In this document: piece by piece, positions 21,423 to 62,932 of the stretch | Numbering within the stretch: position 1 is the stretch's first letter | How the letters are laid out: each line of letters starts with the position of its first letter | Source of the DNA: an uncultured Candidatus Saccharibacteria bacterium | GTDB lineage: Bacteria > Patescibacteriota > Minisyncoccia > Phycocordibacterales > PALSA-1337 | Assembly: GCA_964645315.1 (NCBI GenBank) | Contig: CAZYBH010000003.1 | Coordinates: forward strand, 5,789 to 69,788 | Direction of reading: 5' to 3' | DNA length: 64,000 nucleotides | Notes under the pieces: generated by a model | What the model saw: only the letters and a program-made list of their open reading frames with translations | Told to the model about the DNA's origin: nothing | Database searches by the model: none | Program-made: the position numbers and the translations under genes

Positions 21423-21442
21423 AAATATATAAAAGAAAACCC

Positions 21443-24124: not shown

Positions 24125-24198
24125 AACAACATACTAATACAGAAATATAGCCATAGTCAATCTGCCCCGAGGTGAAACATCGGGTGTTCTATGTTCTA

Positions 24199-24219: not shown

Positions 24220-24221
24220 AG

Positions 24222-35236: not shown

Positions 35237-35304
35237 ATTAATGATAATTATTATGCATACATTTTAGCACCTCTACTTGCATATGTCTGACATCTACTCT
35301 CTTT

Positions 35305-35325
35305 TTGCGAGGTTAAACCTCACAA
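35305..35325. promoter_or_regulatory. palindromic motif copy 3 (TTGCGAGGTT-A-AACCTCACAA) overlapping the -35 region upstream of def
   Basis: Lies 38-58 bp upstream of a TATAGT -10-like hexamer (35363..35368). That hexamer sits 6 nt before the def ATG. Confidence 0.5.
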
Positions 35326-35374
35326 AGCAACACATAACCTGTTCAAAACAATCCTTCTCTGTTATAGTTTGTAA

Positions 35375-37619: not shown

Positions 37620-37668
37620 TAAATAAATATGTTACATTTTCTCATGTTAGTTCATTAAAAGAAAATAT

Positions 37669-39614: not shown

Positions 39615-40452
39615 ATGCGCTTTTAATGTTATCTTCCGACCGTTTTTCACCGTTTTTAAATGGTGGTTTTTGCTCTATGGCAGTTACATTATCGTCACTG
39701 CGTGGTTCCCGTAATTTTCCCGTTATTTCGGGAAAGGTCGTCTCACCGGGCTGACGAACGACAGTATCCCCAGAAGGGTCTCGAATAGCAACTGATTCCT
39801 GACTTCTTGGCATCTGCCATTTCTGCATTGTTCCCCTTAACACATCTCCAATGTGAGTTACAGAATTAGGAGAGTTTTTTCTTAGGTTAGTTAGAGTTTC
39901 ATTATCATCACTGCGATATGGTCGCTTATTGTAACTGCGAGGGCGTTGTTTTTGTAACTGCGGTGGTGCCTCGGATATCTTTATTTTTCGATTCCAGTTA
40001 GGGACCGGCAACCATAGCTCGCTCGCATGGAAAGTGTAGAGATTTACCATGTTGAACATACCATCAGCTCTCGTAACGCCGATAATGCCGTAGCCTTCGA
40101 GGATGCGAATTGCCTTAATGATGCTACTTCTGTTTTTACTGCCGACGAGTTCCTGAATGGTAGTGATACTTGGAAACGCCGCCTGGCTTTCGGTGTTGCA
40201 GTGGACCAAAAGCGCCATATATACTGACGTACATAACTTTGAGAGTGTTGCAAGATATCCGCCTTGCACATATTCGTTATCAACGAAGAACCTGCTCGAC
40301 TTATTCTTTTTGCGAAGTTTGGACCGATCTATCTTGTCATGCAGTCTGTTGAGGTAGGCTTTCTTTTGATTGTGGTTGAGGTCCTTTCTTGTTTTTGATT
40401 TGTCTCTTAGTATCCACTCGATCAATTCCTTGTCGTTTTCCATATTCTTCAA
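39607..40452 (-). CDS. hypothetical protein with central HTH-like segment (possible replication/regulatory protein)
   Basis: FPSITTIQELVGSKNRSSIIKAIRILEGYGII resembles a winged-helix/HTH. The N-terminal region overlaps the 40337..40600 ORF in another frame. Confidence 0.45.
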   Translation of the reverse strand: MKNMENDKELIEWILRDKSKTRKDLNHNQKKAYLNRLHDKIDRSKLRKKNKSSRFFVDNEYVQGGYLATLSKLCTSVYMALLVHCNTESQAAFPSITTIQELVGSKNRSSIIKAIRILEGYGIIGVTRADGMFNMVNLYTFHASELWLPVPNWNRKIKISEAPPQLQKQRPRSYNKRPYRSDDNETLTNLRKNSPNSVTHIGDVLRGTMQKWQMPRSQESVAIRDPSGDTVVRQPGETTFPEITGKLREPRSDDNVTAIEQKPPFKNGEKRSEDNIKSAYE

Positions 40453-40600
40453 GCCACGCTTTCTTTATTGGTCGGTAGACGAAGTTAAAAAGCGTGAGCA
40501 AATTAATTGCCTCATTAGCAAGAACGTCATCAGGAAAGACTGTGCCGGTTTCTTCCAGGTGAAGTTGTTTATATTCTTCTAGTGCGTGTTTGGTAAGCAT
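40337..40600 (-). CDS. hypothetical small protein (87 aa); possibly the 5' part of a frameshifted gene together with 39607..40452
   Basis: Track ORF. Overlaps the next ORF by 116 nt in a different frame. Confidence 0.3.
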   Translation of the reverse strand: MLTKHALEEYKQLHLEETGTVFPDDVLANEAINLLTLFNFVYRPIKKAWLEEYGKRQGIDRVDTKRQIKNKKGPQPQSKESLPQQTA

Positions 40601-40630
40601 AATGAGGGGTTCGACCTTTTGTATGAGGTA

Positions 40631-40669
40631 GTGCTCTTCCCAAGAAACAGAAAGAGCTGAGCCCCCATT
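40631..40669 (-). terminator. hairpin aaagagctgag...ctcagctcttt (11-bp stem)
   Basis: Seen directly, between the HerA 3' end and the next minus-strand gene. Confidence 0.4.
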
Positions 40670-40870
40670 GCAAGTTGACTCAGCTCTTTCCGTGCAATGG
40701 GTATCTTTATCCTAGAATCGAAATTCGTACTAAATGTAGGAATTACTTCTCTAAGATGATCTCATCGTACTGCTCTCAAACGGTAAAAAATGGTGCATTA
40801 CTTTGACCGCTTGAAATAAGGGTATTTTCGTGAATTTCGGTGGTTACTGTGCCATAGACGCAAAAACCCC

Positions 40871-40897
40871 TGAATAGGGGTTGAAAAGCGTACACAG
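40871..40897 (-). terminator. rho-independent terminator just after the HerA stop (cccccuauucagggg + U-run on the minus strand)
   Basis: + strand aaaaacccctgaataggggg. On the minus strand the hairpin is followed by uuuuug. Confidence 0.6.
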
Positions 40898-40914
40898 GGG
40901 CGTTTAGGGGGTAA

Positions 40915-42789
40915 TTAGGCTTTCTTCCACAGATCATCTAAATCTATCGTACCACTTTGAGGCCTTCGTTTCTTATCAAGAAGCTTAATTTTTAAAGAAA
41001 GTGGAAATTGAGTCATTTGTCCAGCAATAAAACAGCAACCTGTAGCAAGGTTTGAAATCGAGTCAAAAGAAAGCTTATCCAAATAACTTACCGCCTTATT
41101 AACTGACTTTAAATCATTTTCGTTCATCAATTTGTGAATAAAATAATTATGAAGCTGAGAAATTATGGTGGGAGAAATATCAGATGGTCTCTGACTAGCA
41201 ATTGTAAGAAAAACTCCAAACTTTCTACCTTCCTTTATTATTTCCTCAAACGTTTCTAGACGATAATCTTTCCAAGTTTCAGACTCTCTTACAGAGTTTT
41301 CAGATAAAATGTTATGTGCCTCGTCAATAATAATATGGAGGGATGTATTATTTTTATAAGTTTTTTTCTGATTCTCGTATAACTTTTTTAGAATGACTAA
41401 TGGCAAAGATTTTTTAATATCTCTATTGGCAGATTTTAGATCTATAACTACCAAGTTGTTGCCTTTTCCAAAAATATTCTTTTTAGCATTTGTACTAGTG
41501 TCAAAGACTTTCTGAATGCTTTTTTTGACACTTTCAAGTCTAGTTATGCAATGATAGACGTGGTCATCGTGAACTCTGTTATCTAGCAAATCATAAAGTA
41601 ATTGCATTCTTGCAAAGTCGAGGAACTTTTCAATTATATTGTCAGGAAATACATAAGTATCTGCCTGAGTATAAAATACTTGTGATTTATATTGCTCGTC
41701 AGTTATCTGGTCATAATCAGTAGTTCCACCACATTTAAAGTATGAATGGGTATTATGCCATTCAGGAATAACAAAATCTTGGTTGTCAGTTTCAATCTTA
41801 AGTATTTGTTTGTATCGATCTATACACAAAAATGCCAGTTCTTTATTTTTTAATTTCAAAATTCTGAGCGCTATTAACTTCAAGTTATTTTTGAAATAGT
41901 CATTAGAATTGTTTTCTTTTGTTATCTTTTTAAATAAGCTTATCGAGCGATTCAAAAATGGCTTTTGTGTTTTTTCACTAGCACCAGAAAGTATTGATAT
42001 AAGTTCAATATCAATAAAACCATTTTCGTTCAAAGGAACACGATTTTTGTTATTTATTTTTTCTAACTCAATTTCAGTATTAAGTTTATATACTTTTTTC
42101 TTTTTACTAAGAACATCTGAAGATGAGTATTCACCATTAAAATCAATAAATATAAACTTGGATTTGGATTTAAATTTTTCATTAAGATTTTCTAATCCAA
42201 ATAGTTCTGCATACATTTTTGCAAGAGTATTTGATTTACCAGACCCTGTATTGCCAAAAATACCAATATGACCTGCAAATAGTTTTTTAGCTGAAATTGA
42301 AATATCTTGAGTCTCTTCATCAATCAGTGATCCAAGGGTAACGGAAAGCTCTTTTTCATCAGAAAGCTGATGTAATATTTCAAATTCTTCTCTAGAAAGA
42401 AGTTTACATTCACTACCAATTAGAGGCATTTCTTTGATACCGTGTTGAAAGTTAAAATCGCTATCATAGAATCCAAAAACTGAAACATTGAGAAATCGGC
42501 TTATCTTCTTATTCTCATTTGTATATTTTTTCTTAGTTTGATATCTATCCTCTTCGAGATACTCACCCTCGACTTTACAAATTATTTCAGTAAAACCTTT
42601 AACTATTTTCACATAGTTGGATAGCCCAACAGAAACATTTTTTATTGTTCTACCTTTAAAAAATAGATGAGGGAGATTCTTGTCATTCTTTACCTTAACA
42701 ACAATATCTTTGCCCTTAACACTAAATACACTGCCAATGGTAAATACGGAATTATCAACTAGTCTTTCATGTAAATTAAAGTTGTTCAT
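40915..42789 (-). CDS. herA: HerA-like (DUF87/FtsK-HerA superfamily) ATPase, SIR2-HerA defense system component
   Basis: Walker A IGIFGNTGSGKSNTL and Walker B LHIIIDEAHNIL (DEAH). Start taken at MNNFNLHERL (42789), which overlaps the SIR2 stop by 14 nt. Confidence 0.8.
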   Translation of the reverse strand: MNNFNLHERLVDNSVFTIGSVFSVKGKDIVVKVKNDKNLPHLFFKGRTIKNVSVGLSNYVKIVKGFTEIICKVEGEYLEEDRYQTKKKYTNENKKISRFLNVSVFGFYDSDFNFQHGIKEMPLIGSECKLLSREEFEILHQLSDEKELSVTLGSLIDEETQDISISAKKLFAGHIGIFGNTGSGKSNTLAKMYAELFGLENLNEKFKSKSKFIFIDFNGEYSSSDVLSKKKKVYKLNTEIELEKINNKNRVPLNENGFIDIELISILSGASEKTQKPFLNRSISLFKKITKENNSNDYFKNNLKLIALRILKLKNKELAFLCIDRYKQILKIETDNQDFVIPEWHNTHSYFKCGGTTDYDQITDEQYKSQVFYTQADTYVFPDNIIEKFLDFARMQLLYDLLDNRVHDDHVYHCITRLESVKKSIQKVFDTSTNAKKNIFGKGNNLVVIDLKSANRDIKKSLPLVILKKLYENQKKTYKNNTSLHIIIDEAHNILSENSVRESETWKDYRLETFEEIIKEGRKFGVFLTIASQRPSDISPTIISQLHNYFIHKLMNENDLKSVNKAVSYLDKLSFDSISNLATGCCFIAGQMTQFPLSLKIKLLDKKRRPQSGTIDLDDLWKKA

Positions 42790-43789
42790 CGTCTTTATCC
42801 GGTTCAAGGACCTCTTGTTCTTTATTTGTGAATATACCAGAAAGGAATTCTGTGCTTTTTTCAAATGGCAAATTATTTTCTACATAGAAGTTTGACTTTT
42901 TCTTTTCCTCTAGATCATCTACCACTTCATCGTATTCTTTGTGATAAAGATAAACTACTATTAGGGTCGGATTGTTCTTCATTACACCGTAAAGTAACTC
43001 TCTTATATGTTTATCTTTAAGAGAAAATCCTAATATAAACAAAACACTATTTTCTTTTTCCAGCTCTAACGTAAACTTCCTTAGCATGGAAGCGTAATTA
43101 GTATCTAGAACTGTTTCAAGGTGTTTTTCTGCATTTGGATTGATGACAGCAACTTGTTTATACCCTGTAGCAAAATCATTCCCGGTTTTACTATCCAGAT
43201 CATCAGCAATATGCGAACCATTTGAATAGATGATTTTTTCCTCTTTTGTCTTCCAAGAAAGTGAACCGTGAAGTTTAATGATATTGAAAAGTGGAATGTC
43301 GGAAGTGTTATCAAATTGAAGGCTCTTATATTTTTGAATTTTGTTAAAATTTGCCACGCTAAATACTGAATTGATTTGCCCGGCAAATCCATCATTGTAC
43401 GGTATACCTAAACGCTCACAGGCATCTTCTATAAACATGTCAAAGTTCGTGCTGAAAATATTGACTTGTTTATTTACGATATGTAATGATCGACGGGAAA
43501 TAGTATCAGCCCAAAAATTTAAAAATGTATCATAGTTCTGTTTGGTTTTAGTAAGCTTACCTTGTTCTGCCACATCCACCTCAAAGGTTGAATTTAGAAT
43601 AGCTTTTGATTTGCGGATGATCTTATAATAATCTTTTTGTGCGACCTCTTTGGTAGCATCATTATTCATTCGGTTTTCAATGTCTTGCAGGGTCGAAAGA
43701 TAGTCAAGAGAACAACCAGAACCAATAAGTAGATTTATGTGGCCACTTTGAATTATTTCTTTGAGTTCTTTTTTATCGATTTTTTTCAT
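42776..43789 (-). CDS. SIR2-like NADase domain protein, SIR2-HerA defense system component
   Basis: INLLIGSGCS (GAGIS-like), FSTNFDMF (TQNID-like) and IIKLHGSLSW (catalytic HG) motifs. Lies immediately upstream of HerA in the same orientation. Confidence 0.8.
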   Translation of the reverse strand: MKKIDKKELKEIIQSGHINLLIGSGCSLDYLSTLQDIENRMNNDATKEVAQKDYYKIIRKSKAILNSTFEVDVAEQGKLTKTKQNYDTFLNFWADTISRRSLHIVNKQVNIFSTNFDMFIEDACERLGIPYNDGFAGQINSVFSVANFNKIQKYKSLQFDNTSDIPLFNIIKLHGSLSWKTKEEKIIYSNGSHIADDLDSKTGNDFATGYKQVAVINPNAEKHLETVLDTNYASMLRKFTLELEKENSVLFILGFSLKDKHIRELLYGVMKNNPTLIVVYLYHKEYDEVVDDLEEKKKSNFYVENNLPFEKSTEFLSGIFTNKEQEVLEPDKDDEQL

Positions 43790-46101
43790 ACTTTTAATTT
43801 GACCCACTCACTCCAATCACCACGTTCGCATTTTTCCCAGTTGTAAGTAGATTCTTGGTTTAATGTCCAATCTCCATTTCTCTCAATCACAACACCACCA
43901 AAAAGCTTTTTATTCTTCTGGGTCTTTATGTATTGGTACAAAGCCTCAGCCTTAGCTTTTGTGTAAGTTTTACCATCACGATCACCTGAATCCTTTACTT
44001 CAAATATACCGATCTTTCCATCAGTGAATTGGACCAGATAGTCCGGATAGAAAGTATAGATAGCACCAGAGTATTCATACTTCACGCCAAAGTATTCCTG
44101 TTTGTTTTCTCCATTTTTCCACCACCAAGTTATTTTTGAGCTATTATCATTCAAAAACTTCTCAAAAGATTTCTCGGGTAGGGATCGGTCAATGTTTAGG
44201 TAGCATGGCTGATAGGCATACTTTTTGGTAGGAACAATTTCATCAGTAAATTCGTTATAAAAAAGCTCTATAGGGAGTTCAAAAGCATATTTCTTTTCGC
44301 TTTCTTCTACTCGCTTTCGGACCTCAGCCTCTTTGACCGTCTTGTATTCATCGACTGCCTTAGTAAGAATCTTTTCAATCGCTGGACGATTGTCTTTGTG
44401 CATACAAAGCTTTTGAATGAGGAGTATTTCCTCATGCCAATCTTCTGAATTGAGGTATTTTCTGAACCACAAATAAATAGCAGTCTTTACGCTTGGAATA
44501 GAGCGCTTAACATTTCTAAATGGACCGAGCTGTGACTTAATCATTTGCTCAAAGAAAATCTGCAATTCATCAGCAGCAACACTAAGCTTTGCCATAGCAG
44601 TGGGATCTATATTTCCTTGAAGTTCATCAAAGTTTTTAGCACTGATATGAGTGTCAGCAATAATTTGTTGCTGGTACTTTTCAAGCTCAACATCAATACC
44701 CATATTCTTGAGTGACGTCTTGATCTTCACCAGTTTCTCACCATCTTCTATACCAAGTTCTCTGTTTACTACCTTTTCAAATACCGGCGTAAAGCTTGAG
44801 GTGATGTCTCCGTAATCAGCACGTGCTTTATAGTAAGAATCAATTTTGAGCGGCTTATACTCCTTAACTCTATTAGCCTTTAGATGTTTGATTATGTTTG
44901 GATTGTATTCTTCTTTCTTAACTGAAATAGATTCCAAGTTTGTATAGATGTAACCACGATTAAGAGCCTCATTTTCATAATGCTTTTGTTCTGGCATACG
45001 TAAGATTCGTCCGACAGTCTGTATTTCAAAAACAATATTCGAAGATTCTCTAAACTTCACAAGAATATGAGCACGAGGACAGTCCCATCCAGTATCAATT
45101 GCTTGTTTGAATATCAAAAACTCAATCTGATTGTCCGATTCAGAAATCCACTCGATAGTGTCTGATTTTTGTTCAGCAAGCCAAATAGCAAGCTTTCCAT
45201 TTTTCTCTGTAATACCCTTATCACCAAGAAACTTTTTAACAGCATCAATCTTTTGATCACCAGCCTCGGATGTAGGAATCTGTATTAAGACAAGAGGATT
45301 AATATCAGAATCTTCTTTTGCAAAAGCCTTCTTAAGTTCAAGACGTTTTTTATATGCCGCCTCTAAGACTGCTGTCTGTGAATCATCTTCTGATTTTGCA
45401 ATCTTCTCAATATCCTCATTGATGATGAGCTCTTTCTTAATCATCCCTTCTTCGATAACGTCTTTTGGATTCACCTTTACCAATCCAGCGCGAGTTTCAA
45501 CAATATCTTCAGCTGTAATTTTTATACTTGGTGTGGCACTCATTTCAATCGTTACATCGGCAGCAATAAGCTCACGAAGTTCCTGAGCGCGACCTGTAGA
45601 TGCGTTGGTGTGACTCTCATCAATAATAAGAATTATCTTTCTCTGTTCTTTAGTTTTTTCAAGTACATCACGGAAATTAAGTTTCTCACCATCTTTCATG
45701 GCGAGGTTTTTCCAATCACCAGACTTACCATCCTTGGCACGTAGTTTTTCCCAGTTTGCCACTACGACTTCATTCTGAACAATACGCTCTCTACCACCAC
45801 TAAATTCACCCTCAACAAGTGAGACACGAGGAAAACCCCCGAAGATTCGCTCGAGAGATCGCTTACTCTGTCCATGAAGATCACCTTTACCAATACTCAT
45901 CCAAATAAAACAAAGATCTTCGTTTGGAAGTTCTTTTATAAGACTCTCTATAAAAATAGCAGTCATGACAGTCTTGCCTGATCCGGTAGGGGCTTGAAAT
46001 ACACAAACTTCACCAGGACCGTCAAAATCCAAAAGTTTAACTGTCGTGTCAACAAGCTGGTTGACTGCTTTTTCTTGATAGGGTTTTAAATTAATACTCA
46101 T
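43786..46101 (-). CDS. res: Type III restriction enzyme Res subunit (SF2 helicase + C-terminal PD-(D/E)xK nuclease)
   Basis: FQAPTGSGKT (motif I), IIDESH (motif II), MSATP (motif III), QTVGRILR (motif VI), and C-terminal PDYLVQFTDGKIGIFEVKD. Confidence 0.85.
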   Translation of the reverse strand: MSINLKPYQEKAVNQLVDTTVKLLDFDGPGEVCVFQAPTGSGKTVMTAIFIESLIKELPNEDLCFIWMSIGKGDLHGQSKRSLERIFGGFPRVSLVEGEFSGGRERIVQNEVVVANWEKLRAKDGKSGDWKNLAMKDGEKLNFRDVLEKTKEQRKIILIIDESHTNASTGRAQELRELIAADVTIEMSATPSIKITAEDIVETRAGLVKVNPKDVIEEGMIKKELIINEDIEKIAKSEDDSQTAVLEAAYKKRLELKKAFAKEDSDINPLVLIQIPTSEAGDQKIDAVKKFLGDKGITEKNGKLAIWLAEQKSDTIEWISESDNQIEFLIFKQAIDTGWDCPRAHILVKFRESSNIVFEIQTVGRILRMPEQKHYENEALNRGYIYTNLESISVKKEEYNPNIIKHLKANRVKEYKPLKIDSYYKARADYGDITSSFTPVFEKVVNRELGIEDGEKLVKIKTSLKNMGIDVELEKYQQQIIADTHISAKNFDELQGNIDPTAMAKLSVAADELQIFFEQMIKSQLGPFRNVKRSIPSVKTAIYLWFRKYLNSEDWHEEILLIQKLCMHKDNRPAIEKILTKAVDEYKTVKEAEVRKRVEESEKKYAFELPIELFYNEFTDEIVPTKKYAYQPCYLNIDRSLPEKSFEKFLNDNSSKITWWWKNGENKQEYFGVKYEYSGAIYTFYPDYLVQFTDGKIGIFEVKDSGDRDGKTYTKAKAEALYQYIKTQKNKKLFGGVVIERNGDWTLNQESTYNWEKCERGDWSEWVKLKV

Positions 46102-47920
46102 AAATTTGTTTGTATACGTCTAGAATCTTTTGTGGAATTGGCTCGACCGTAACATCTTTCCATCCACTAAAATCTTTTTTATTTAATCCAAGAGGATCAA
46201 GAGTAAAACAGTAGAGAATCTTTTCTCCTTCGATCTTACTTAAATCCTTTTTAAGTTCTGATAAGGCCTTCCGATCTAGGGAATAGTAGGCGGCAAGAAC
46301 CCTATTACCTTTCTGGAATACTCTATAATCATCAGTTGTTTTTACTTCATCAAAAATACCTTCACGTAGACAAAGCATTTCTGTACATTCCTTTGTCATA
46401 CGGATCTTCAAATCATCTTTGTTTGCAGTTTTCTTGATGAATTTAGTTTTGAAGTATTTTAGAGATCCTACACCAGTATTTGTGAGAACATTGTTTAATC
46501 TAGGATATGTTTTTTCGAGACAAATATTTTCTTCATTATTTGTACATAAAATAAATTTATGTTGCGTACCTTTATCCTTATTAAGCTCTACAACCGCATG
46601 GCCTGTTGATCCACTTCCTGCAAAAAAGTCTAGAATTGTCGCATTATCATCTGAAACAAAATGAATTAGTTGCTTTATCAATCTAATTGGTTTTTTACCA
46701 TTCTTAAAATCAATCCCACCTTCTTTAGCAACGTTACCCATATCAAGATAAAAGCCTGGCCACCAGTCACCCCTGATAGTAGTTACACCGTAAGTTTGGT
46801 AATAGTCATCAGCCTTTCTAACTTTATCTGATAAGCGAATTCTTTGTTTATATTCTCCCTTACCGTTATATCCAACTAAATAAGATCGATCATTTGAGCC
46901 ATACTCAATTAAGATACCCTCTTTAACTTTAGATAGAACTTCTTTGTCTTTTATCTCTACAGTATCGTGAATACGAACAATCTGATCTGCTTTTTTATTT
47001 ATAAAATCTCTTACTTCATCAAGTTTTGCATAAGCATCAGAGATTTGATTATTAGTCATCGATCTCTTTCCTTTTGAATCTTTAGCTAAATTCAAAAAAC
47101 ATAATTTTTCAAATATCTTGTTATCCGCACATAAAACGCTTGTGAGTGATGTCTCTGAATAAGTTCCATCCGTATTTTTATTTATAAACAGGGAGTAGTG
47201 ATTGTCGTATTCAATCGGATCGTACAAAACATTTTTTCCGATAGTCTTTCTTCCATCTTTTGAATACACAAGAATATACTCGGCATTTTTTACTATATTA
47301 CCCATCTTTGCTGATCTTACTTTTTGACCTTGGACCGTAGACATCTGAACGTGCAAAGTGGTAACAAAATTATTTAAACCAAAAACCTCATCGCACAGTA
47401 GTCTAAGCTGAGACTGTTCATTGTCATCTATCGAAATAAAAATAACTCCAGTCTCTCTCAGTAGATTTTTTGCTAATCGCAACCTTTTTGACATGAAAGA
47501 CAACCATTTGCTGTGTTTATATTCGTCCTCACTATCAACATAATTGTCGTTATAAATAAAATCCCTATTACCAGTGTTGTAGGGTGGGTCAATATAAATA
47601 ACATCAACTTTTCCTTGATGAGTGAAATTTAAGACAGAGAGTGCATGGTAGTTATCGCCCTCAATCAATATGTTTACTGGTCTAGTGTCGTCTTTGTCAG
47701 TAATTTCTTTTCCTTTTACTTCCTTAAGAACTGGTAGTGCATTTTCGGCATCTTTCTCGAACTGTTCTTTCACCTTATCTTCATCCCAGATAAGTCCATA
47801 TTTCTTTCGAGATTCAAGCTTTTCTACAATTTTAATTAGATCCTCTTTGCTAAGGTTGGAATAATCTTTCTTTGAATTCTTATTGGTTGCAATGGGATTC
47901 ATTACACAACACTTTACCAT
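46091..47920 (-). CDS. mod: Type III R-M Mod subunit (beta-class N6-adenine DNA methyltransferase)
   Basis: DPPY (motif IV: IYIDPPYNTGN) precedes motif I FxGxG (ILDFFAGSGSTG). Overlaps the res start by 11 nt. An alternative start is MNPIATN at 47902. Confidence 0.85.
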   Translation of the reverse strand: MVKCCVMNPIATNKNSKKDYSNLSKEDLIKIVEKLESRKKYGLIWDEDKVKEQFEKDAENALPVLKEVKGKEITDKDDTRPVNILIEGDNYHALSVLNFTHQGKVDVIYIDPPYNTGNRDFIYNDNYVDSEDEYKHSKWLSFMSKRLRLAKNLLRETGVIFISIDDNEQSQLRLLCDEVFGLNNFVTTLHVQMSTVQGQKVRSAKMGNIVKNAEYILVYSKDGRKTIGKNVLYDPIEYDNHYSLFINKNTDGTYSETSLTSVLCADNKIFEKLCFLNLAKDSKGKRSMTNNQISDAYAKLDEVRDFINKKADQIVRIHDTVEIKDKEVLSKVKEGILIEYGSNDRSYLVGYNGKGEYKQRIRLSDKVRKADDYYQTYGVTTIRGDWWPGFYLDMGNVAKEGGIDFKNGKKPIRLIKQLIHFVSDDNATILDFFAGSGSTGHAVVELNKDKGTQHKFILCTNNEENICLEKTYPRLNNVLTNTGVGSLKYFKTKFIKKTANKDDLKIRMTKECTEMLCLREGIFDEVKTTDDYRVFQKGNRVLAAYYSLDRKALSELKKDLSKIEGEKILYCFTLDPLGLNKKDFSGWKDVTVEPIPQKILDVYKQIYEY

Positions 47921-48045
47921 TTTTTGCCCTAAAAATAAAGATTTTTTGAGTTCATGAATTATTTAACATCAAGCTCAATAATAGCCTTATAAACAAAGAT
48001 TATTTCACCTCTCTCTCTTCAGACACGATTTAACATTTTGTATCT

Positions 48046-48100
48046 AAATTTAAAGTTGGGGGCTTAACTTTAAATTTGCCGATTCCAAATTAAAAGTTAC
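48046..48100. promoter_or_regulatory. three alternating half-sites AAATTTAAAGTT / AACTTTAAATTT / AAATTAAAAGTT, ~130-180 bp upstream of mod; near-identical element at 62459..62512
   Basis: Half-sites at 48046..48057, 48066..48077 and 48087..48098. The last overlaps the stop codon of the Zn-ribbon gene. Confidence 0.55.
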
Positions 48101-48390
48101 TGTCCGGTCCACTCTTGCTCACAAACCGCACATTGTACATAGCCGGTATGTTCAAAATTGTTGGTAAATCCATTAGATTGATACGTTTTTGTTGTCTCAT
48201 CCCAGTAGAACTCGTCATCGATAATAGTTTCTACAAGTTTACGATCAGAGCCACAAAACTGACAGGTGTGTTTTGGATATTTTTTAGTCTTTCTTTCCAT
48301 ACGGACGATCATTGATCGAAGGCTGGAAGAAGTCAATGAAAAGCTAAAACCGCCCATTTCGAGACGGTTTCGGATACTCCTTCTACGCAT
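48097..48390 (-). CDS. small zinc-ribbon protein (CxxC ... CxxC)
   Basis: CQFCGS ... CAVCEQ. 97 aa. Confidence 0.5.
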   Translation of the reverse strand: MRRRSIRNRLEMGGFSFSLTSSSLRSMIVRMERKTKKYPKHTCQFCGSDRKLVETIIDDEFYWDETTKTYQSNGFTNNFEHTGYVQCAVCEQEWTGQ

Positions 48391-49573: not shown

Positions 49574-50107
49574 ATGACATTAATCTACATACTCACTGGA
49601 ATCATTGTTGTTATTGGTGTTGTTGTTGGACTTCTGAAAGATAAGTTTGATTTTATAGACGATAAACCAAAATATAACTATAAACGTCGCAATTGGTTTC
49701 TAACTAAAGCTGAACATGAATTTTATGATGCACTTGTGAAAGTGGTCGGTAACGATTACATCATCTTTGCTCAAGTTCATTTACCAACACTTCTTGAACA
49801 TAAGGTCGTAGGACAAAACTGGAATGCAGCATTCAGACATGTGAGTCAAAAGTCTGTAGACTTCGTACTTTGTGACAAAGCGTACATTTCTCCAAAGCTT
49901 GCTATTGAGCTTGATGATAAGTCACATGAAAGGCCTGATCGTGTGGACCGAGATATTGAAGTTGAGCGTATTCTTAAGGGCGCAGGTCTGCCACTTATAA
50001 GGATCCAAAATCATGGAACATTTAATCCTCAAGAGTTAGCTCAAAAGATTAGGATCGCTATAAATCCTAGCGATACTTCGCCATCTCTTTCTCAGTCGGC
50101 CTCGTAA
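49574..50107 (+). CDS. DUF2726-like protein with N-terminal TM helix (predicted restriction-endonuclease-like fold)
   Basis: FLTKAEHEFYDAL ... YIIFAQV ... VDFVLCD ... IELDDKSH, resembling DUF2726. Confidence 0.55.
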   Translation: MTLIYILTGIIVVIGVVVGLLKDKFDFIDDKPKYNYKRRNWFLTKAEHEFYDALVKVVGNDYIIFAQVHLPTLLEHKVVGQNWNAAFRHVSQKSVDFVLCDKAYISPKLAIELDDKSHERPDRVDRDIEVERILKGAGLPLIRIQNHGTFNPQELAQKIRIAINPSDTSPSLSQSAS

Positions 50108-50121
50108 TTCCAAAGAAACCC

Positions 50122-50191
50122 TGCTTGATATTCGGTAGCCAAATATGGGCTTTATTCGTCTTCCAAAAGGTTCCTATTTCTCGTGCAATGT
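50122..50191. repeat. ~70-bp direct repeat, copy 1 (copy 2 at 50415..50483, ~90% identical)
   Basis: tgcttgatatt.ggtagccaaatatggg..ttattc...ttccaaaaggttcctatttctcgtgcaatgt is present twice. Each copy ends at an ATG. Confidence 0.75.
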
Positions 50192-50217
50192 CGAGCATTA
50201 TTATTAAATTTTACTCT

Positions 50218-50414: not shown

Positions 50415-50483
50415 TGCTTGATATTTGTAGCCAAATATGGGCCTTATTCTCTTTCCAAAAGGTTCCTATTTCTCGTGCAATGT
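50415..50483. repeat. ~70-bp direct repeat, copy 2
   Basis: See 50122..50191. The terminal ATG (50479) opens a 35-codon ORF, MLQMKNRTSIMLEAILLSHHLLFNPHVALNSFKYF. Confidence 0.75.
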
Positions 50484-50727
50484 TGCAAATGAAAAATCGC
50501 ACATCAATAATGCTAGAAGCCATTCTTCTTTCTCATCATCTCCTTTTCAACCCGCATGTTGCCTTGAATTCGTTCAAATATTTCTAAGAGATTTTTCCCA
50601 ACCTCTTACAATTTCCAAAGACTGTTCCTCAAGTTCAGCCAGATGTACCAACTTAAGTGGTCGAGATAATTAGGATTCTTTCGCCTTTTCTATTGCCATG
50701 ATTAAAAAATCTGTATCTCTCATAACT

Positions 50728-59302: not shown

Positions 59303-62300
59303 TTAATCAGTACGAACTAAATCAATCTCTCGCATAATCCTGTCTGTTTCAATAAGCAATGTAATTATTTTTTGATAGTGTTTTAAATCATCACTGGATA
59401 ATGTTCTACCTTGCCGGTCTTTAAGCCATTTTTGCACAGGTTGATATGCTCCTATCGTAAAGTTCCAGGCAGTTTCTGGTACATTGCCGAAATATTGTGT
59501 CTGATTAATAAAAACTTTCCCATCTTTATATTTTGGGTACTTCTCGTCCACGACATCAGTTCCAACCTCAGGGAATGTAGTGAGTAACGTATTTAATTTT
59601 GAAGATTCCATCAAGTGGAGTTCTCTTAACTCTTTACCTAGTTTTACCAACGAATTAAATATGGCCTTATCTTTTGGATAAGGTACTCTCGGGAAATCAA
59701 TCTTCAAAAACTCTACATACTTCTTACGATAATCGGGTGAATATAGAACGGCGTATACATAATCGAAGACGTCTTCAGGGGTAATTTTGTTTACAATCTT
59801 TTCAAAGTTGTTAATAATTTCCTTGTTCAAATTTATGACTTTAGAGCCATCATTTGCATAAAGGTATAGAGGTAATACATAGTCAATTTCACTTGTCTTA
59901 TTTGATATAAGGGTCGATTCAGTAATATACTTTGAAACCAATACATGCTGATACACATCTCCGGATTTTATCTGCCTTAAAACATTCAAAACAATGTTCC
60001 CTTTAGATAAATGTTGCATGACAACTTTTCTTGATCGCTCTACAAAATCATCACTGTAATAGATGAATCGATCATCAAATGGGCGATAACTTATTGGTAC
60101 TAGATTAGTCTCATCATATTGGTGTTTGAGTGCATTTACCGCTTTCCATTTCAAGTTTTCTTTTAGATCAAACTTCTTCAGCGCATCTTTTGCATCCTCG
60201 GTCCTTAGAAAATCAATTATGCGATCTTTCAGGGTTTGTTTATTAAAATCGATCACAAAAGCGTCGCGCGAAGTTACGATACCAACGCTTGATATAGGAA
60301 AAAGATCCGCTACGGAAAAACCCTTTCTATATTCTTCCAGAGTTTTCGTATCTCGTGCCACCCACTCAAAATTCGGAGCAGAAGGTTTTATCTCAGTCCA
60401 TTCCAAGGTATCAAGAGACCCATCGTTAAGGTATCCGAATTTATGATTACGAGCCCCATAAGAATCTGCTTTGAATACCTTACAGTTTTTTGGTGATTTA
60501 CCCTTATGCTTAATACCTATGAATATTGAGACTCCTGTTTTTATATTAAATACATTCTCATCTTTGCTTCCATCAAGAGCTTTTTCCTTTTTGTTTGCGT
60601 TTCCGTGGAGATCAAGCACGTATATCTTTTCAAATGTCTGCATCAAATGATGGCGCATTCCACGGAAGGTTGGATTATCAATATATCCATGTGCTGTAAT
60701 CATGGCCACAACGCCTTCATCTGTTTTTTCAATCATGCTTTCAGCCAATCTGATGAATTTTACATAGTCGTCGTTAAGCCACTTTGAATTTCTTTCCTGT
60801 AACTTACCCCCACCTGGTTCGGCTTTGTATACATCATTACCTTTATAGTGAGCGTTGCTTGATTCACCGGAATAGGGAGGGTTACCAATGACTACCATAA
60901 TCGGCAATTCATTTTTTACCTTATTCGCCTGATTGGATTCTTCTGTAATAGCTTTTCCAAGCCCAATATCAAAGAGGGTCTTCTCCTGTATTTCAGCTTT
61001 CTCAAGAGAGTTTGTCAGGTATATACCAAGACGAGTGTTTTCTATTTTTGCGCCACTCTCAGCGATCGTGGATGAAAGTTTAAGATGGGCAATCGTGTAC
61101 GACGCCATCATAAGCTCGAAACCGTGCATTCGCGGTAAAAGATCTTCATTCACATATGAAGACCACCTACCTTCCTGTCCTATAAAAGATTTCTTTATAT
61201 GAAGTATTGCTTCATTTAGAAATGTTCCGGTACCCGTTGCCGGATCAAGTACCTGAACTTTATGTACAGACACTTTTCCACGCTTTCCCTGAACCTCTCT
61301 ACTAATACTTATCTTAGAATTATCGGCAAGACCTTGAGGCAAATCAAATTCCTTTTTTAGAATGTCATCAACGGCACGGATAATAAAACGAACTACAGGG
61401 AGTGGTGTATAGAAAACACCCATCTTCTTACGTTCTGCGGAATCATATTCCTGAAGGAAGTCCTCATAAAAATGAATGATGGGGTCTTTGCTTTCATGGA
61501 CTTTTCCAAAAAGATCGGTTTTGTAATATTTATGTATAATTTCTTTAACATCTGCATGGTTAAATTCCTCACACAACTCATTAACTATATATTCGATTCG
61601 ATTATCGAAAGACGATCCTGCGATATGATTAAAGAACTCTCTCAAAAATGGATTTGATGGTGGTATAAGATCGCGAGCTTCTTGTCTAGTAAAATTCTCT
61701 TGCGTTTTATCATTAAATCGTGCAACAAAAAGTCCATATACTAGTGTTTGTGCATACATATCAGCAAACTTTGTATGATCTAGATCAGCCAAAAGTAATT
61801 TTTTTATAACTTCATAAACACCAAGAAGATTTTCATTTCTTGGGTTTCTTTCATCTTCTAAAAACTTTTTTACATTATCTCTTATACGACGAGCTTTTCC
61901 CGCCATAACCTTCGAAAGCACTGCGCCAGATCTTATAGGTTCCTTGGACTTTTTGATAAAATCGAAGATTGTATCTGCCAGTAATTGAAAATACTTTTCG
62001 TCCGCGGAAACAATACCATTATCAAGTTTACCAATAATAACCGGATCGACTTGACGCGTACCATTTACATAAAAACGAAAATCCAAACCATTAGTAAGTA
62101 TAATGTTTGAATAGCCGTAATATCGGACCATTTGTTCACTTTTTTCTATATCATCTAGCAGGACATCAATATCTTTCGCTTCTGCATAGGCTACAACTAA
62201 TTTTTCCTTAAGAAATATAAAATCTGGAGCACCATGTTCGCTGCGCTTTGGTTCATTTATGACATTCAAGCTAGTTATCTTTTCAAAAAGTTCTTTAAGT

Positions 62301-62383
62301 GCTGGACGATAAGAATGTTCTCGTGCATGACCACTACTGTGTGTTTCTATTACTTTTTGAATAAAAGCTGAAACAGGATTCAT
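59303..62383 (-). CDS. Type IIG restriction-modification enzyme (N-terminal PD-(D/E)xK nuclease + gamma-class N6-adenine MTase + TRD; MmeI-like architecture)
   Basis: N-terminus APDFIF...AYAEAKD (PD..ExK). MTase motif I VLDPATGTGTFL and motif IV VIGNPPYSGE. 1026 aa. Confidence 0.8.
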   Translation of the reverse strand: MNPVSAFIQKVIETHSSGHAREHSYRPALKELFEKITSLNVINEPKRSEHGAPDFIFLKEKLVVAYAEAKDIDVLLDDIEKSEQMVRYYGYSNIILTNGLDFRFYVNGTRQVDPVIIGKLDNGIVSADEKYFQLLADTIFDFIKKSKEPIRSGAVLSKVMAGKARRIRDNVKKFLEDERNPRNENLLGVYEVIKKLLLADLDHTKFADMYAQTLVYGLFVARFNDKTQENFTRQEARDLIPPSNPFLREFFNHIAGSSFDNRIEYIVNELCEEFNHADVKEIIHKYYKTDLFGKVHESKDPIIHFYEDFLQEYDSAERKKMGVFYTPLPVVRFIIRAVDDILKKEFDLPQGLADNSKISISREVQGKRGKVSVHKVQVLDPATGTGTFLNEAILHIKKSFIGQEGRWSSYVNEDLLPRMHGFELMMASYTIAHLKLSSTIAESGAKIENTRLGIYLTNSLEKAEIQEKTLFDIGLGKAITEESNQANKVKNELPIMVVIGNPPYSGESSNAHYKGNDVYKAEPGGGKLQERNSKWLNDDYVKFIRLAESMIEKTDEGVVAMITAHGYIDNPTFRGMRHHLMQTFEKIYVLDLHGNANKKEKALDGSKDENVFNIKTGVSIFIGIKHKGKSPKNCKVFKADSYGARNHKFGYLNDGSLDTLEWTEIKPSAPNFEWVARDTKTLEEYRKGFSVADLFPISSVGIVTSRDAFVIDFNKQTLKDRIIDFLRTEDAKDALKKFDLKENLKWKAVNALKHQYDETNLVPISYRPFDDRFIYYSDDFVERSRKVVMQHLSKGNIVLNVLRQIKSGDVYQHVLVSKYITESTLISNKTSEIDYVLPLYLYANDGSKVINLNKEIINNFEKIVNKITPEDVFDYVYAVLYSPDYRKKYVEFLKIDFPRVPYPKDKAIFNSLVKLGKELRELHLMESSKLNTLLTTFPEVGTDVVDEKYPKYKDGKVFINQTQYFGNVPETAWNFTIGAYQPVQKWLKDRQGRTLSSDDLKHYQKIITLLIETDRIMREIDLVRTD

Positions 62384-62458
62384 AATTAAAGAGCATTATA
62401 GCATTTTGAGCGCCAAAAATAAAGGTATTTTCCCCTTAACCCGTATTCAGTCCCCTCA

Positions 62459-62512
62459 TATTAAAACTTAACGCCTTAACTTTTAATTTGCCCAATTCAA
62501 ATTAAAAGTTAC
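62459..62512. promoter_or_regulatory. second copy of the AACTTT(T/A)AATTT half-site element: perfect 14-bp inverted repeat TAACTTTTAATTTG-n7-CAAATTAAAAGTTA plus an upstream partial half-site
   Basis: Arms at 62477..62490 and 62498..62511. Lies ~95-130 bp upstream of the Type IIG gene start. Confidence 0.55.
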
Positions 62513-62533: not shown

Positions 62534-62881
62534 TTACAACCTATCATACTTCGTATGCTTCCCCTTGGCCTTTTCCTCGGGATACTTAGCTTCATTGATT
62601 TTCAACTTGCGGTCGAGGGCGGAGAGAATGTCGATATCGAGATCATGACTCATGAGGAGGACCCAATAGAGAACATCAGCCAACTCTTCACCTATTGCTG
62701 TTTTGTTTTCTTTAATATATTTTTCCATTTCCTCAACACTTTTCCACTGAAAATGTTCCATCACTTCAGTGGCCTCAAGGACAAGTGACAAGGCAACATC
62801 TTTTGGATTATGGAATTGTTTCCAGTCTCGCGCGTCGCGGAATTTAATTATCCGATCAGTCAAAGTCTTAATATTAGACAT
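62534..62881 (-). CDS. MazG-like nucleotide pyrophosphohydrolase (small all-alpha NTP-PPase)
   Basis: FRDARDWKQFHNPKDVALSLVLEATEVMEHFQW ... EELADVLYWVLLMS, typical of the MazG/YpjD family. Confidence 0.7.
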   Translation of the reverse strand: MSNIKTLTDRIIKFRDARDWKQFHNPKDVALSLVLEATEVMEHFQWKSVEEMEKYIKENKTAIGEELADVLYWVLLMSHDLDIDILSALDRKLKINEAKYPEEKAKGKHTKYDRL

Positions 62882-62932
62882 ATATTTTAATAGAAAAACT
62901 CTACCACTTTACCGGCCAAAAATAAAGCTATT

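What the first reader, a model, noticed from the sequence alone, without database searches (positions are those of the whole stretch)
48046..48100. Shared three-half-site palindromic element upstream of both restriction-modification methyltransferase genes
Element A (48046..48100) has three alternating half-sites: AAATTTAAAGTT, AACTTTAAATTT and AAATTAAAAGTT. Element B (62459..62512) contains the perfect inverted repeat TAACTTTTAATTTG-n7-CAAATTAAAAGTTA plus a partial third half-site. Overall identity over ~50 bp is ~85%. Both lie ~100-180 bp upstream of the start codons of the Type III mod gene and the Type IIG RM gene, the only two DNA MTase genes in the window, and nowhere else in the window. 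This looks like a common operator, comparable to C-protein boxes, that co-regulates two unrelated RM systems; no obvious C-protein is adjacent. Candidate regulators are the small Zn-ribbon protein whose stop overlaps element A, and the MazG-like gene next to element B.
Basis: seen in the sequence. Interest (0 to 1): 0.6.

Follow-up and report, generated by a model that had tools for sequence, protein, structure and literature searches.

The report
Conserved three-arm element before defence operons
A 55-bp DNA element with three alternating AT-rich arms sits just upstream of both restriction-modification operons here and of many kinds of anti-phage operons in related ultra-small (Patescibacteria) bacteria, so it is a real conserved protein-binding-type site whose job is still unproven.

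Summary
Elements A (48045-48099) and B (62457-62511) share three 13-14-bp arms separated by two 7-bp spacers. The dyad occurs nowhere else in the window, where 0 copies are expected by chance.

Sixteen distinct loci carry the same element, and every named one is a Patescibacteria MAG. It always has the same orientation. In 11 of 13 assessable loci it lies 85-231 nt before a defence operon: Type I, Type III or Type ISP RM, or AbiE. In 12 of 16 loci it starts at the stop codon of an orphan acidic 67-aa zinc-ribbon gene.

The arms are far more conserved than synonymous codon positions (identity 1.00 and 0.89 against 0.60). Their few changes are not compensated, so sequence rather than RNA pairing is under selection.

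The link to RM and defence genes holds. However, the distance to the ATG-proximal promoters runs from 0 to about 150 bp, terminators intervene in some loci, and neither proposed regulator shows evidence of DNA binding.

My best reading (about 0.4) is a tripartite protein-binding gate, an operator or insulator, at the 5' boundary of defence operons. The main rival (about 0.2) is a recombination or junction site for cargo exchange. No match to the motif was found in the literature, Rfam, phage or plasmid collections.

The parts
48045..48099 (-). Element A. On the minus strand: H3' 48099-48086, spacer 1 48085-48079, H2' 48078-48065, spacer 2 48064-48058, H1' 48057-48045.
   Evidence: Sequence; repeat family D9; dyad unique and expected 0 by chance; nhmmer profile E=3e-16.
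62457..62511 (-). Element B. On the minus strand: H3' 62511-62498, spacer 1 62497-62491, H2' 62490-62477, spacer 2 62476-62470, H1' 62469-62457.
   Evidence: Sequence; nhmmer profile E=1e-14.
48097..48300 (-). Orphan 67-aa zinc-ribbon gene (CxxC...CxxC). Its TAA stop codon is the first three bases of arm H3'.
   Evidence: Translation. Small family: 21 clusters and 28 representatives among 1.84 billion proteins. AlphaFold2 model is a long beta-hairpin zinc ribbon, pLDDT 78. No significant PDB match. pI 5.2.
48308..48336 (-). Promoter-like site of the zinc-ribbon gene (TTGACT-17-AATGAT). It marks the left edge of the conserved 290-bp module.
   Evidence: Promoter scan. Homology among 10 loci starts exactly here.
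47911..47945 (-). Promoter-like region of mod: CTTTATTTTT motif plus extended -10 TGGTAAAGT, 8 nt before the ATG at 47902.
   Evidence: Repeat family D3; genome-wide use of TGnTAnnnT close to the ATG.
43786..47902 (-). Type III RM operon: mod 46091-47902 and res 43786-46101. This is the cargo downstream of element A.
   Evidence: Pfam N6_N4_Mtase and ResIII. Orthologues with the element upstream are in L003, L034 and L036.
62395..62430 (-). Promoter-like region of the Type ISP gene: CTTTATTTTT motif plus extended -10 TGCTATAAT, 11 nt before the ATG at 62383.
   Evidence: (D3).
59303..62383 (-). Type ISP/IIG restriction-modification fusion gene. This is the cargo downstream of element B.
   Evidence: Pfam Type_ISP_C 5.8e-87, N6_Mtase, Eco57I.
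62534..62881 (-). MazG-like gene ending 22 nt before element B. With the element it forms a module shared with L002.
   Evidence: Pfam MazG-like 8.8e-17. The winB-L002 homology runs only from -340 to +54 relative to the element.

Best explanation
The element is a tripartite, sequence-specific protein-binding DNA site. Two strong inverted 14-bp arms (H3' and H2') and a weaker third arm (H1') are centred 20-21 bp apart, so they lie on one face of the helix. The element forms the conserved upstream boundary of defence operons in a group of Patescibacteria.

I think it most likely acts in cis as a gate between a small upstream transcription unit and the defence operon. An unidentified factor would bind the strong dyad and, cooperatively, the weak promoter-proximal arm. 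That binding would either occlude the -35 where the arm overlaps it (L001, L002), or block or insulate transcription entering from upstream where the defence promoter lies further away (the window, L003, L005, L033).

Shown: the anatomy, the conservation pattern, the defence association, and the overlap with a -35 in L001 (by scan) and L002 (by my reading).

Inferred: that a protein binds, and that binding controls transcription.

The only syntenically linked candidate for the factor is the orphan zinc-ribbon protein, and that assignment is weak.
For: 1. Specificity: the dyad is unique in the window and expected 0 times by chance. There is one copy per related locus.
2. Selection on sequence: in 9 zinc-ribbon-linked loci the pairwise identity is 1.00 for H3', 0.89 for H2', 0.86 for spacer 1 and 0.75 for H1'. 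Spacer 2 is 0.59 and third codon positions of the adjacent ORF are 0.60. Both spacers are always 7 nt.
3. Pairing is not what is conserved: the H3':H2' helix has 0 compensatory pairs, its central pair is unpaired in 11 of 15 sequences, and it does no better than shuffles. The same holds for H2':H1'. The RNA fold of A is weak (-10.8 kcal/mol, z = -1.3).
4. Defence association across independent cargo types: Type I, III and ISP RM and AbiE. Orientation is constant and the weak arm always faces the defence operon.
5. In L001 the promoter scan finds TTGACT-17-TATACT overlapping H1'. In L002 my own reading gives TTGCAT-17-TACCCT at the same place; the scan did not report it. Both genes start at +85 although the cargo is only 73% identical. 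A strong distal site with a weak site over the -35 is the logic described for C.PvuII operators (PMC2175313).
6. In L033 the zinc-ribbon ORF is frameshifted but the element is intact. In the window, element B lies 14 kb from the only zinc-ribbon gene. Both facts fit a factor acting in trans.
Against: - The distance from H1' to the -35 of the defence promoter varies from 0 to about 150 bp with no constant helical phase.
- An intrinsic terminator (L006) or a strong hairpin followed by a U-run (L033) separates the element from the defence promoter. That is unusual for an operator, though it fits an insulator belonging to the upstream unit.
- No regulator gene is shared by all loci.
- The zinc-ribbon protein is acidic and carries an invariant ETIIDDEFxWxE patch. 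It has no DNA-binding family or fold match.
- Zinc-ribbon homologues without the element are interleaved in identity with those that have it.
- A 21-bp centre-to-centre distance between half-sites is longer than for typical dimeric HTH operators.
- No binding or expression data exist.
Confidence: 0.4

Rival explanations
1. The element is a recombination or junction site. It would be the binding site of a recombinase, with 14-7-14 inverted arms plus a third arm like the core sites of tyrosine recombinases, or a preferred insertion target. Through it, defence cargo would be inserted or swapped next to small anchor genes.
For: - The geometry matches lox/FRT/dif-type cores: 11-14-bp inverted arms, a 6-8-bp spacer, and a third arm in FRT. 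That comparison rests on my own knowledge.
- Flanks are unrelated on both sides, and homology ends at the element's edges. The zinc-ribbon module is conserved from -240 to +52 in 10 loci with different cargo. winB and L002 share only -340 to +54. L001 and L002 share sequence from position 0 rightwards.
- The window and L013 share the element module on one side and a large-serine-recombinase + HTH_36 module on the other (37964-40910, 91% identity), with different defence cargo between them.
- The stop codons of two unrelated upstream genes, the zinc-ribbon gene and ParE in L006, coincide with the TAA of H3'.
Against: - No tyrosine recombinase was found in the window or the held flanks.
- There is only one copy per cargo, and no second site or single arm at the 3' ends of cargo.
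- Spacers differ between A and B, and spacer 2 evolves neutrally.
- Homology breakpoints fall at the ends of the element, not inside a spacer.
- No similar sequence lies next to the serine recombinase or the tRNA.
- The one clear deletion derivative (L030) arose by microhomology inside the zinc-ribbon ORF, not at the element.
Confidence: 0.22
2. The element acts at the RNA level. It would be a 3'-UTR hairpin of the upstream small gene, or a switch between the alternative hairpins H3':H2' and H2':H1'. A ribosome stopping at the TAA inside H3' would set the switch, which in turn would control read-through, stability or processing.
For: - Orientation relative to transcription is constant.
- The stop codon lies inside H3' in the zinc-ribbon loci and in L006.
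- Canonical terminators follow the element in L006 and L033, which places it in the upstream gene's 3' UTR.
- Some arm changes are compatible with wobble pairing: L034 gives G·U and U·G, and L013 and L017 give U·G.
- Element B and the L006 element fold significantly better than shuffles (z about -4.2).
Against: - There are no compensatory changes. The central pair is mismatched in 11 of 15 sequences, and other changes break pairs (L036 C·U; L001 and L002 C·A).
- H2':H1' pairs no better than shuffles.
- Element A folds no better than shuffles.
- The stems are AU-rich without an adjacent U-tract, so they are not detected as terminators.
- In winB and L002 the stop codon is 22 nt away, and in L001 it is 150 nt away.
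- No Rfam family matches.
Confidence: 0.08
3. The element is a relic or passenger. It would be the end of an extinct small mobile element (MITE-like), or sequence that simply hitch-hikes with frequently exchanged anchor genes, with no present function.
For: - The element is rare. It was found in 16 loci across one genome for each of 185,579 species and 241 million metagenome records using the exact-dyad pattern.
- Most copies belong to one syntenic neighbourhood that also holds the 43-aa ORF, the zinc-ribbon gene and a tRNA.
Against: - The arms are invariant where synonymous sites and spacer 2 are only about 60% identical.
- The element persists next to zinc-ribbon genes only 62-66% identical in protein sequence (L034, L036).
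- It sits in four different upstream contexts.
- No terminal inverted repeat partner or target duplication was seen.
Confidence: 0.1
4. The similarity between A and B is a chance resemblance of AT-rich intergenic DNA.
For: The genome is about 38% G+C. Arm-like 13-mers with 2 mismatches are common: 27 were found against 14 expected.
Against: The dyad matched 0 times in 100 shuffles. The element is conserved in 14 further loci from other assemblies.
Confidence: 0.01

Closest known systems
C-protein operators (C-boxes) of Type II RM systems, e.g. C.PvuII OL/OR
   Same: Both are palindromic protein-binding sites upstream of RM genes. Both pair a stronger distal site with a weaker proximal site, and the proximal site can overlap the -35 (here L001 and L002). 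In C-protein systems the presumed purpose is to time or limit expression of a toxic defence operon (PMC3874152, PMC2175313).
   Different: No HTH C gene is adjacent. The element has three 13-14-bp arms with 7-bp spacers instead of two dyads with a highly conserved 4-nt spacer. Here the spacers are the least conserved part. The systems served are Type I, III and ISP RM and AbiE, not Type II. The distance to the promoter is variable, and the sequence is unrelated to GACT...AGTC-type boxes.
Tripartite operators of temperate phages (lambda OR1-OR2-OR3)
   Same: Both have three similar sites of graded affinity, separated by short spacers and phased on one face of the helix. That arrangement is suited to cooperative binding. 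This comparison rests on my own knowledge.
   Different: The arms alternate in orientation. No repressor gene lies next to the element. It does not sit between divergent promoters.
Core sites of tyrosine recombinases (loxP 13-8-13; FRT 13-8-13 plus a third arm; dif 11-6-11)
   Same: The arm length, the inverted arrangement, the 7-bp spacer and the third arm all resemble these sites. The flanks on both sides are variable.
   Different: No cognate recombinase was found. Spacers are not conserved between copies. Each cargo has a single site. Homology breakpoints lie at the element's edges rather than inside a spacer.
SCC-type cassette arrays at the 3' end of rlmH, mobilised by large serine recombinases and reported to carry anti-phage defences (PMC11470126, title and abstract only)
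   Same: In both, a site overlaps the 3' end of a small conserved gene, with variable defence cargo beside it. A large serine recombinase is present in the same island in the window and in L013.
   Different: There are no repeated att copies bounding the cargo. The recombinase is absent from most loci. No similar sequence lies at the recombinase end.
Mu com-mom control (a small zinc-finger protein acting on a hairpin before a DNA-modification gene)
   Same: A small zinc-binding protein gene lies immediately upstream of a hairpin-capable element and a DNA modification gene. This comparison rests on my own knowledge.
   Different: Com acts on RNA at the mom start codon. Here the defence genes have their own promoters at the ATG, 35 to about 150 bp downstream of H1'. 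There is no sequence or fold similarity.

Membership tests
C-protein / C-box control of RM systems | An adjacent helix-turn-helix C-protein gene, usually co-transcribed with the REase gene | tested here: not met
   Pfam, NCBIfam and PADLOC scans of all flanking ORFs find no HTH regulator next to either element. The only HTH gene, HTH_36 at 39607-40452, is about 7.6 kb from A.
C-protein / C-box control of RM systems | Two dyad operators (OL, OR) separated by a highly conserved 4-nt spacer, with OR overlapping the -35 | tested here: not met
   The element has three arms with 7-nt spacers. Spacer 2 is the least conserved part, at identity 0.59. A -35 overlap appears only in L001 (scan) and L002 (my reading).
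Tyrosine-recombinase core site (lox/FRT/dif type) | Inverted 11-14-bp arms flanking a 6-8-bp spacer | tested here: met
   14-7-14 for H3'/H2' and 14-7-13 for H2'/H1' in all 15 aligned sequences.
Tyrosine-recombinase core site (lox/FRT/dif type) | A cognate tyrosine recombinase encoded nearby | tested here: not met
   None was found among window ORFs or in the held flanks of 16 loci. The rest of those genomes could not be searched.
Tyrosine-recombinase core site (lox/FRT/dif type) | Partner sites share the spacer, and junctions fall inside it | tested here: not met
   Spacers are GAATCGG/AGCCCCC in A and AATTGGG/AGGCGTT in B. Homology ends at positions 0 and about +52.
dif (chromosome dimer resolution site) | A single copy at the replication terminus, where GC skew changes sign | tested here: not met
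   There are two copies 14.4 kb apart. Cumulative GC skew falls monotonically across the window.
Integron attC | R''/R' boxes (RYYYAAC / GTTRRRY), an unpaired central spacer, arrays of cassettes, and an IntI integrase | tested here: not met
   H2' is followed by GTTRRR in most copies (my reading). However, there are no arrays, no IntI (Pfam calls), and the arms are conserved in sequence, unlike attC.
Large-serine-recombinase att site | attL and attR bound the element that carries the recombinase gene | tested here: not met
   No element-like sequence lies near the recombinase or tRNA end at 37.9-41 kb. Most loci with the element have no serine recombinase in the held flanks.
Intrinsic (Rho-independent) terminator | A G+C-rich stem followed directly by a U-tract | tested here: not met
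   The terminator scan does not detect either element, although it finds canonical terminators nearby. The stems are almost entirely A-U.
Known structured RNA families (Rfam 15) | A match at the gathering score | tested here: not met
   There is no hit at gathering score. Permissive scans give only sub-threshold chance hits.
Generic genome-wide repeat (REP/MITE) | Many scattered copies in unrelated intergenic regions | tested here: not met
   There are two copies in 64 kb and one per related locus. Only the window and partial flanks were available, not whole genomes.

The most novel reading that the evidence does not exclude
The element could be the recognition site of a still unidentified recombination system that loads and swaps anti-phage cassettes next to small anchor genes in Patescibacteria. 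It would work like an integron or SCC array for defence genes, but with a sequence-conserved three-arm site and no linked integrase. A less radical novel reading is that the orphan acidic zinc-ribbon protein and the element form a portable, non-HTH controller that serves many unrelated defence systems.
Probability: 0.18. Interest if true: 0.8.

Novelty: new variant of a known kind. Interest (0 to 1): 0.5.

Why it matters
Almost nothing is known about gene regulation or the organisation of defence islands in Patescibacteria (CPR). Here one short, strongly selected DNA element precedes Type I, III and ISP RM and AbiE operons.

If it is a regulatory gate, it would be a shared control point for unrelated immune systems that works without a C protein. 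If it is a recombination site, it would explain how defence cargo is exchanged in these reduced genomes.

Either way it gives a concrete 55-bp probe for EMSA, DAP-seq and reporter assays, and one candidate partner, the 67-aa zinc-ribbon protein. It is also a practical marker for finding defence cargo in CPR metagenomes.

Tried and rejected
- Chance similarity: rejected.
- Generic repeat: rejected.
- Phage or plasmid origin: no hits in IMG/VR pattern scans or in the INPHARED and PLSDB BLAST searches.
- Other palindromes caught by the metagenome pattern (L008, L009/L011, L012/L019, L014, L018): these are unrelated hairpins, mostly in intergenic gaps between unrelated genes, or lie in DNA with no clear genes.
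- dif site: rejected on copy number and GC skew.
- Serine-recombinase att site: no partner sequence at the recombinase/tRNA end.
- Single arms at the 3' ends of cargo: the only candidate (43789-43801) lies inside the res coding sequence and is not conserved in L003.
- RNA structure: no covariation.
- Known RNA families: none.
- Function of the zinc-ribbon protein: Pfam, NCBIfam, PADLOC, a Foldseek search of the PDB with an AlphaFold2 model, and an HMM search of 1.84 billion proteins gave no annotation and no informative fused architecture.
- A shared regulator gene in the flanks of all loci: none was found by all-against-all clustering. An ECF sigma-like gene is present only in L005 and L017.
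- DnaA boxes near the element: present in L005, L013 and L015 but not in the window.
- Literature search for the arm sequences: two hits, both on C. elegans locomotion and unrelated to this motif.
- The 248-aa ORF upstream of the zinc-ribbon gene as a DpnI homologue: no similarity.

Full report
**Observation**

All genes around both sites are on the minus strand, so I describe the element on that reading strand.

- Element A (48099 down to 48045) reads TAACTTTTAATTTG-GAATCGG-CAAATTTAAAGTTA-AGCCCCC-AACTTTAAATTTA.
- Element B (62511 down to 62457) reads TAACTTTTAATTTG-AATTGGG-CAAATTAAAAGTTA-AGGCGTT-AAGTTTTAATATG.

I call the arms H3', H2' and H1', in the order of transcription. The repeat finder lists A and B as family D9, 81% identical over 53 nt. 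The dyad with up to 3 mismatches occurs only at these two places and never in 100 shuffles. The exact arm 13-mer occurs only inside the elements.

Pfam confirms Type III mod and res downstream of A, a Type ISP/IIG fusion enzyme downstream of B, and a MazG-like gene ending 22 nt before B. The stop codon of a 67-aa CxxC...CxxC zinc-ribbon ORF is the TAA of H3' in A. No other DNA methyltransferase was found among the window's ORFs. The only correction is that B is 73 nt, not 100-180 nt, from its start codon.

**Context in the window**

Positions 1-37 kb hold housekeeping genes: LeuRS, G6PD, Ddl, UvrC, UvrA, ClpB, a class II aminoacyl-tRNA synthetase, RseP, RRF, MreB, MurA-like, PriA, Def and Fmt.

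A tRNA gene interrupted by a group I intron sits at 37671-37994. From there onward the DNA is a defence island:

- a large serine recombinase and an HTH_36 gene (37965-40452);
- HerA and SIR2 (40915-43807);
- Type III RM;
- the zinc-ribbon gene;
- DUF2726;
- DUF3800, which matches a PADLOC candidate family;
- the Type ISP gene;
- the MazG-like gene.

**Related loci**

An exact-pattern scan of one genome per species found six loci. All are Patescibacteria MAGs: four Saccharibacteria, one Paceibacterota and one Taylorbacteria. The metagenome scan added seven true members and six unrelated palindromes. Context look-ups of zinc-ribbon and Mod homologues added L033, L034 and L036/37/38. In total I count 16 distinct loci.

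An nhmmer profile of the element finds one copy per locus, two in the window, and no partial copies elsewhere. Nothing was found in viral contigs, phage records or plasmids. No relevant paper contains the arm sequences.

**Anatomy and selection**

The 15-sequence alignment gives the consensus [T/C]AACTTTWAATTTG-N7-CAAATTWAAAGTTA-N7-AAnnTTWAAWWnn, and both spacers are always 7 nt.

For nine zinc-ribbon-linked loci, pairwise identities are as follows:

| Segment | Identity |
|---|---|
| H3' | 1.00 |
| H2' | 0.89 |
| Spacer 1 | 0.86 |
| H1' | 0.75 |
| Spacer 2 | 0.59 |
| Third codon positions of the adjacent ORF | 0.60 |

The arms are therefore under strong purifying selection, and spacer 2 is not.

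For the H3':H2' helix there are no compensatory pairs. The central pair is unpaired in 11 of 15 sequences, and the score does not exceed shuffles. The alternative H2':H1' helix is also no better than shuffles. Arm variants in L034 (H2' TGTATTAAAAGTTA) and L036 (H2' CAAATTTAAATTTG) are not compensated in H3', although two of the L034 changes would still allow G·U pairs. RNA folding of A is unremarkable (-10.8 kcal/mol, z = -1.3). B and L006 fold better (z about -4.2). Neither element is detected as an intrinsic terminator, and no Rfam family matches.

Taken together, the sequence is what is conserved, as expected for a protein-binding DNA site. The three arms are centred 20-21 bp apart.

**What flanks the element**

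Downstream, in the same orientation and 85-231 nt away:

- Type III mod-res (winA, L003, L034, L036);
- Type ISP (winB);
- Fic + HsdM (L001, L002);
- AAA_21 + RloB, followed by HsdM in L013 (L005, L013);
- HsdM + HsdS (L006);
- AbiEi + AbiEii (L033; L010 and L017 have the same leader but end early).

The exceptions are L015, where a reversed DUF3800 pair precedes a methyltransferase, and L004/L007, which keep only a remnant of the Type III leader.

Upstream, the zinc-ribbon gene is present in 12 loci. The others have MazG-like (winB, L002), a Phd-ParE toxin-antitoxin pair whose ParE stop codon is again the TAA of H3' (L006), and an unannotated 139-aa ORF 150 nt away (L001).

BLAST among the oriented loci shows that the conserved unit runs from the -35 of the zinc-ribbon promoter (-240) to the end of H1' (+52). 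It is 85-92% identical, and the DNA on both sides is unrelated. winB and L002 share only -340 to +54. L001 and L002 share sequence from position 0 rightwards.

The window and L013 also share the recombinase + HTH_36 module (91%), with different cargo between that module and the element. L033 has only AbiE between the element and the tRNA flank. L030 is a deletion derivative in which the zinc-ribbon ORF is fused to the tRNA flank through a 9-bp microhomology, not at the element.

**Promoters**

In this genome an extended -10 (TGnTAnnnT) lies within 60 nt of the ATG in 20 of 51 ORFs, against 6.7% of random 60-mers. It often lies only 6-12 nt from the ATG, which suggests leaderless or short-leader mRNAs. 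mod, the Type ISP gene and the MazG-like gene have such boxes, preceded by a shared CTTTATTTTT motif.

Relative to these promoters the element has no fixed position:

- It overlaps the -35 in L001 (TTGACT-17-TATACT) and L002 (TTGCAT-17-TACCCT, by my reading).
- It lies about 35 bp upstream in winB.
- It lies about 90-150 bp upstream in winA, L003, L005, L013 and L033.

In L006 an intrinsic terminator follows H1' directly. In L033 a -24.7 kcal/mol hairpin with a U-run does the same.

**Candidate regulators**

The zinc-ribbon family is tiny: 21 clusters at 90% identity and 28 representatives at 50% identity among 1.84 billion proteins. It matches no Pfam, NCBIfam or PADLOC model. The AlphaFold2 model (pLDDT 78) is a long beta-hairpin closed by two zinc knuckles and has no significant PDB neighbour.

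The protein is acidic (pI 4.7-6.1) with an invariant ETIIDDEFxWxE stretch. That does not look like a surface for binding double-stranded DNA.

Homologues without the element (74.6, 71, 65.7, 65, 60.6 and 57% identity) are interleaved with homologues that have it (100-89, 65.7 and 62%). Several of those lacking it follow a DpnI gene. In L033 the ORF is frameshifted while the element is intact.

The synteny is therefore real but not obligatory, and there is no positive evidence that this protein binds the element. MazG-like is an enzyme family and is not a candidate regulator on any evidence here. No other gene recurs in the flanks of all loci.

**Interpretation**

I favour a tripartite protein-binding site acting as a gate (operator or insulator) at the 5' boundary of defence operons, with confidence about 0.4. 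The reasons are:

- selection acts on arm sequence;
- spacing is fixed;
- the weak arm always faces the defence operon;
- the weak arm overlaps a -35 with conserved geometry in L001 and L002;
- the association holds for at least six independent cargo types.

The variable distance to the promoter and the intervening terminators argue against a classical operator. They push the model towards insulation of the defence operon from the upstream unit, or control from a distance.

The main rival (about 0.2) is a recombination or junction site. The 14-7-14 geometry with a third arm resembles lox/FRT-type cores, and the flanks change on both sides. Against this, I found no recombinase, no second site, no shared spacer and no breakpoint inside a spacer. 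An RNA-level role (about 0.1) and a functionless relic (about 0.1) are less likely, and chance is excluded.

**Comparison with known systems**

The element works most like C-box operators of RM systems (PMC3874152, PMC2175313), but it fails their defining features. There is no HTH C gene, the operator architecture differs, the spacers are not conserved, and the systems served are not Type II. It shares geometry with tyrosine-recombinase core sites but fails the tests for a recombinase, a shared spacer and internal junctions. It is not a dif site, an attC site, a terminator or a known RNA family.

I rate it a new variant of a known kind, namely a cis-acting protein-binding element associated with RM and defence genes. 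It is of moderate interest because it is rare and its function is unproven. It is unusually clean, however, and it links unrelated immune systems in a poorly understood phylum.

Noticed in passing
window 37671-37994 (+): A tRNA gene is interrupted by a group I intron (Rfam RF00028, 73 bits, 37623-37946). Its 3' end abuts or overlaps the stop of a large serine recombinase ORF (37965-39650, minus strand). This looks like the edge of the defence island. ARAGORN did not call this tRNA.
   Followed up: partly
window 37964-40910; L013 10831-13777: A 2.9-kb module holding a large serine recombinase and an HTH_36 gene is 91% identical between the window and L013. The defence cargo next to it differs: SIR2-HerA plus Type III RM in the window, and AAA_21/RloB plus Type I RM in L013. 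L033 keeps only about 130 nt of its recombinase-end/tRNA flank.
   Followed up: partly
window 50070-50198 (-), partial copy 50428-50490 (-): The repeat family D6 is a conserved 43-aa ORF (MLDIAREIGTFWKTNKAHIWLPNIKQGFFGITRPTEKEMAKYR). It recurs, sometimes twice, in L003, L004/7, L013, L015, L017, L030, L033, L034 and L036, usually near the zinc-ribbon gene. It has no Pfam match.
   Followed up: partly
window 47931-47945, 62415-62430, 62918-62933 (-): A shared promoter-like motif, AAAATAnCTTTATTTTTRGS...TGnTAnnnT, lies just upstream of mod, the Type ISP gene and the MazG-like gene. It is also present before the Type III operons in L003, L016, L034 and L036. The other CTTTATTTTT copies in the window lie inside ORFs.
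   Followed up: partly
window 47959-47970 and 48022-48030 (-); L034 2190-2330; L036 3840-3960: The leader between the element and the Type III mod promoter carries 2-4 copies of (G)ATGTTAAAT(AA). In the window alone this is not significant (3 matches against 1.1 expected). It recurs in orthologous leaders and may be a separate operator.
   Followed up: partly
whole window: Extended -10 boxes (TGnTAnnnT) lie within 60 nt of the ATG in 20 of 51 ORFs, against 6.7% background. They often lie 6-12 nt before the ATG, which suggests that leaderless or very short-leader mRNAs are common in this organism.
   Followed up: partly
L022-24, L028, L032, L034: Zinc-ribbon homologues repeatedly lie 26-45 nt downstream of a DpnI-family (methyl-directed) restriction gene. 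This hints that the protein works with nucleases rather than as a transcription factor.
   Followed up: no
L030 4590-4892: The zinc-ribbon ORF is fused after codon 62 to the recombinase-end/tRNA flank through a GA(R)(S)AAGA(R) microhomology. The deletion removed the element, the cargo and the recombinase.
   Followed up: yes
L005 6216-6224, L013 2647-2655, L015 8911-8919: Perfect DnaA-box 9-mers (TTATCCACA) lie 15-45 nt downstream of H1' in two independent downstream contexts. None is near the window's elements.
   Followed up: partly
window 27213-27249 / 27343-27379: A perfect 37-nt inverted repeat with 93 nt between the arms lies in the gap between the RRF gene and a DNA pol III delta'-like gene. 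Its only Rfam hits are sub-threshold plant miRNA precursors, which means it is simply a long hairpin.
   Followed up: partly
window 21400-21424, 24198-24220, 35302-35326: There are three copies of the palindrome TTTGCGAGGTTAAACCTCGCAAA at gene ends. They are probably a reused bidirectional terminator.
   Followed up: no
window 1205-4309 (-): The leucyl-tRNA synthetase ORF carries a NUDIX domain (residues 461-577) inserted after the editing domain.
   Followed up: no
window 3390-3416, 5884-5910, 5914-5940: A G+C-rich 27-nt repeat (CCTCCTTCGCCAAGGCTTCGGGGGACA and its complement) occurs three times within 2.5 kb, including a tandem pair.
   Followed up: no
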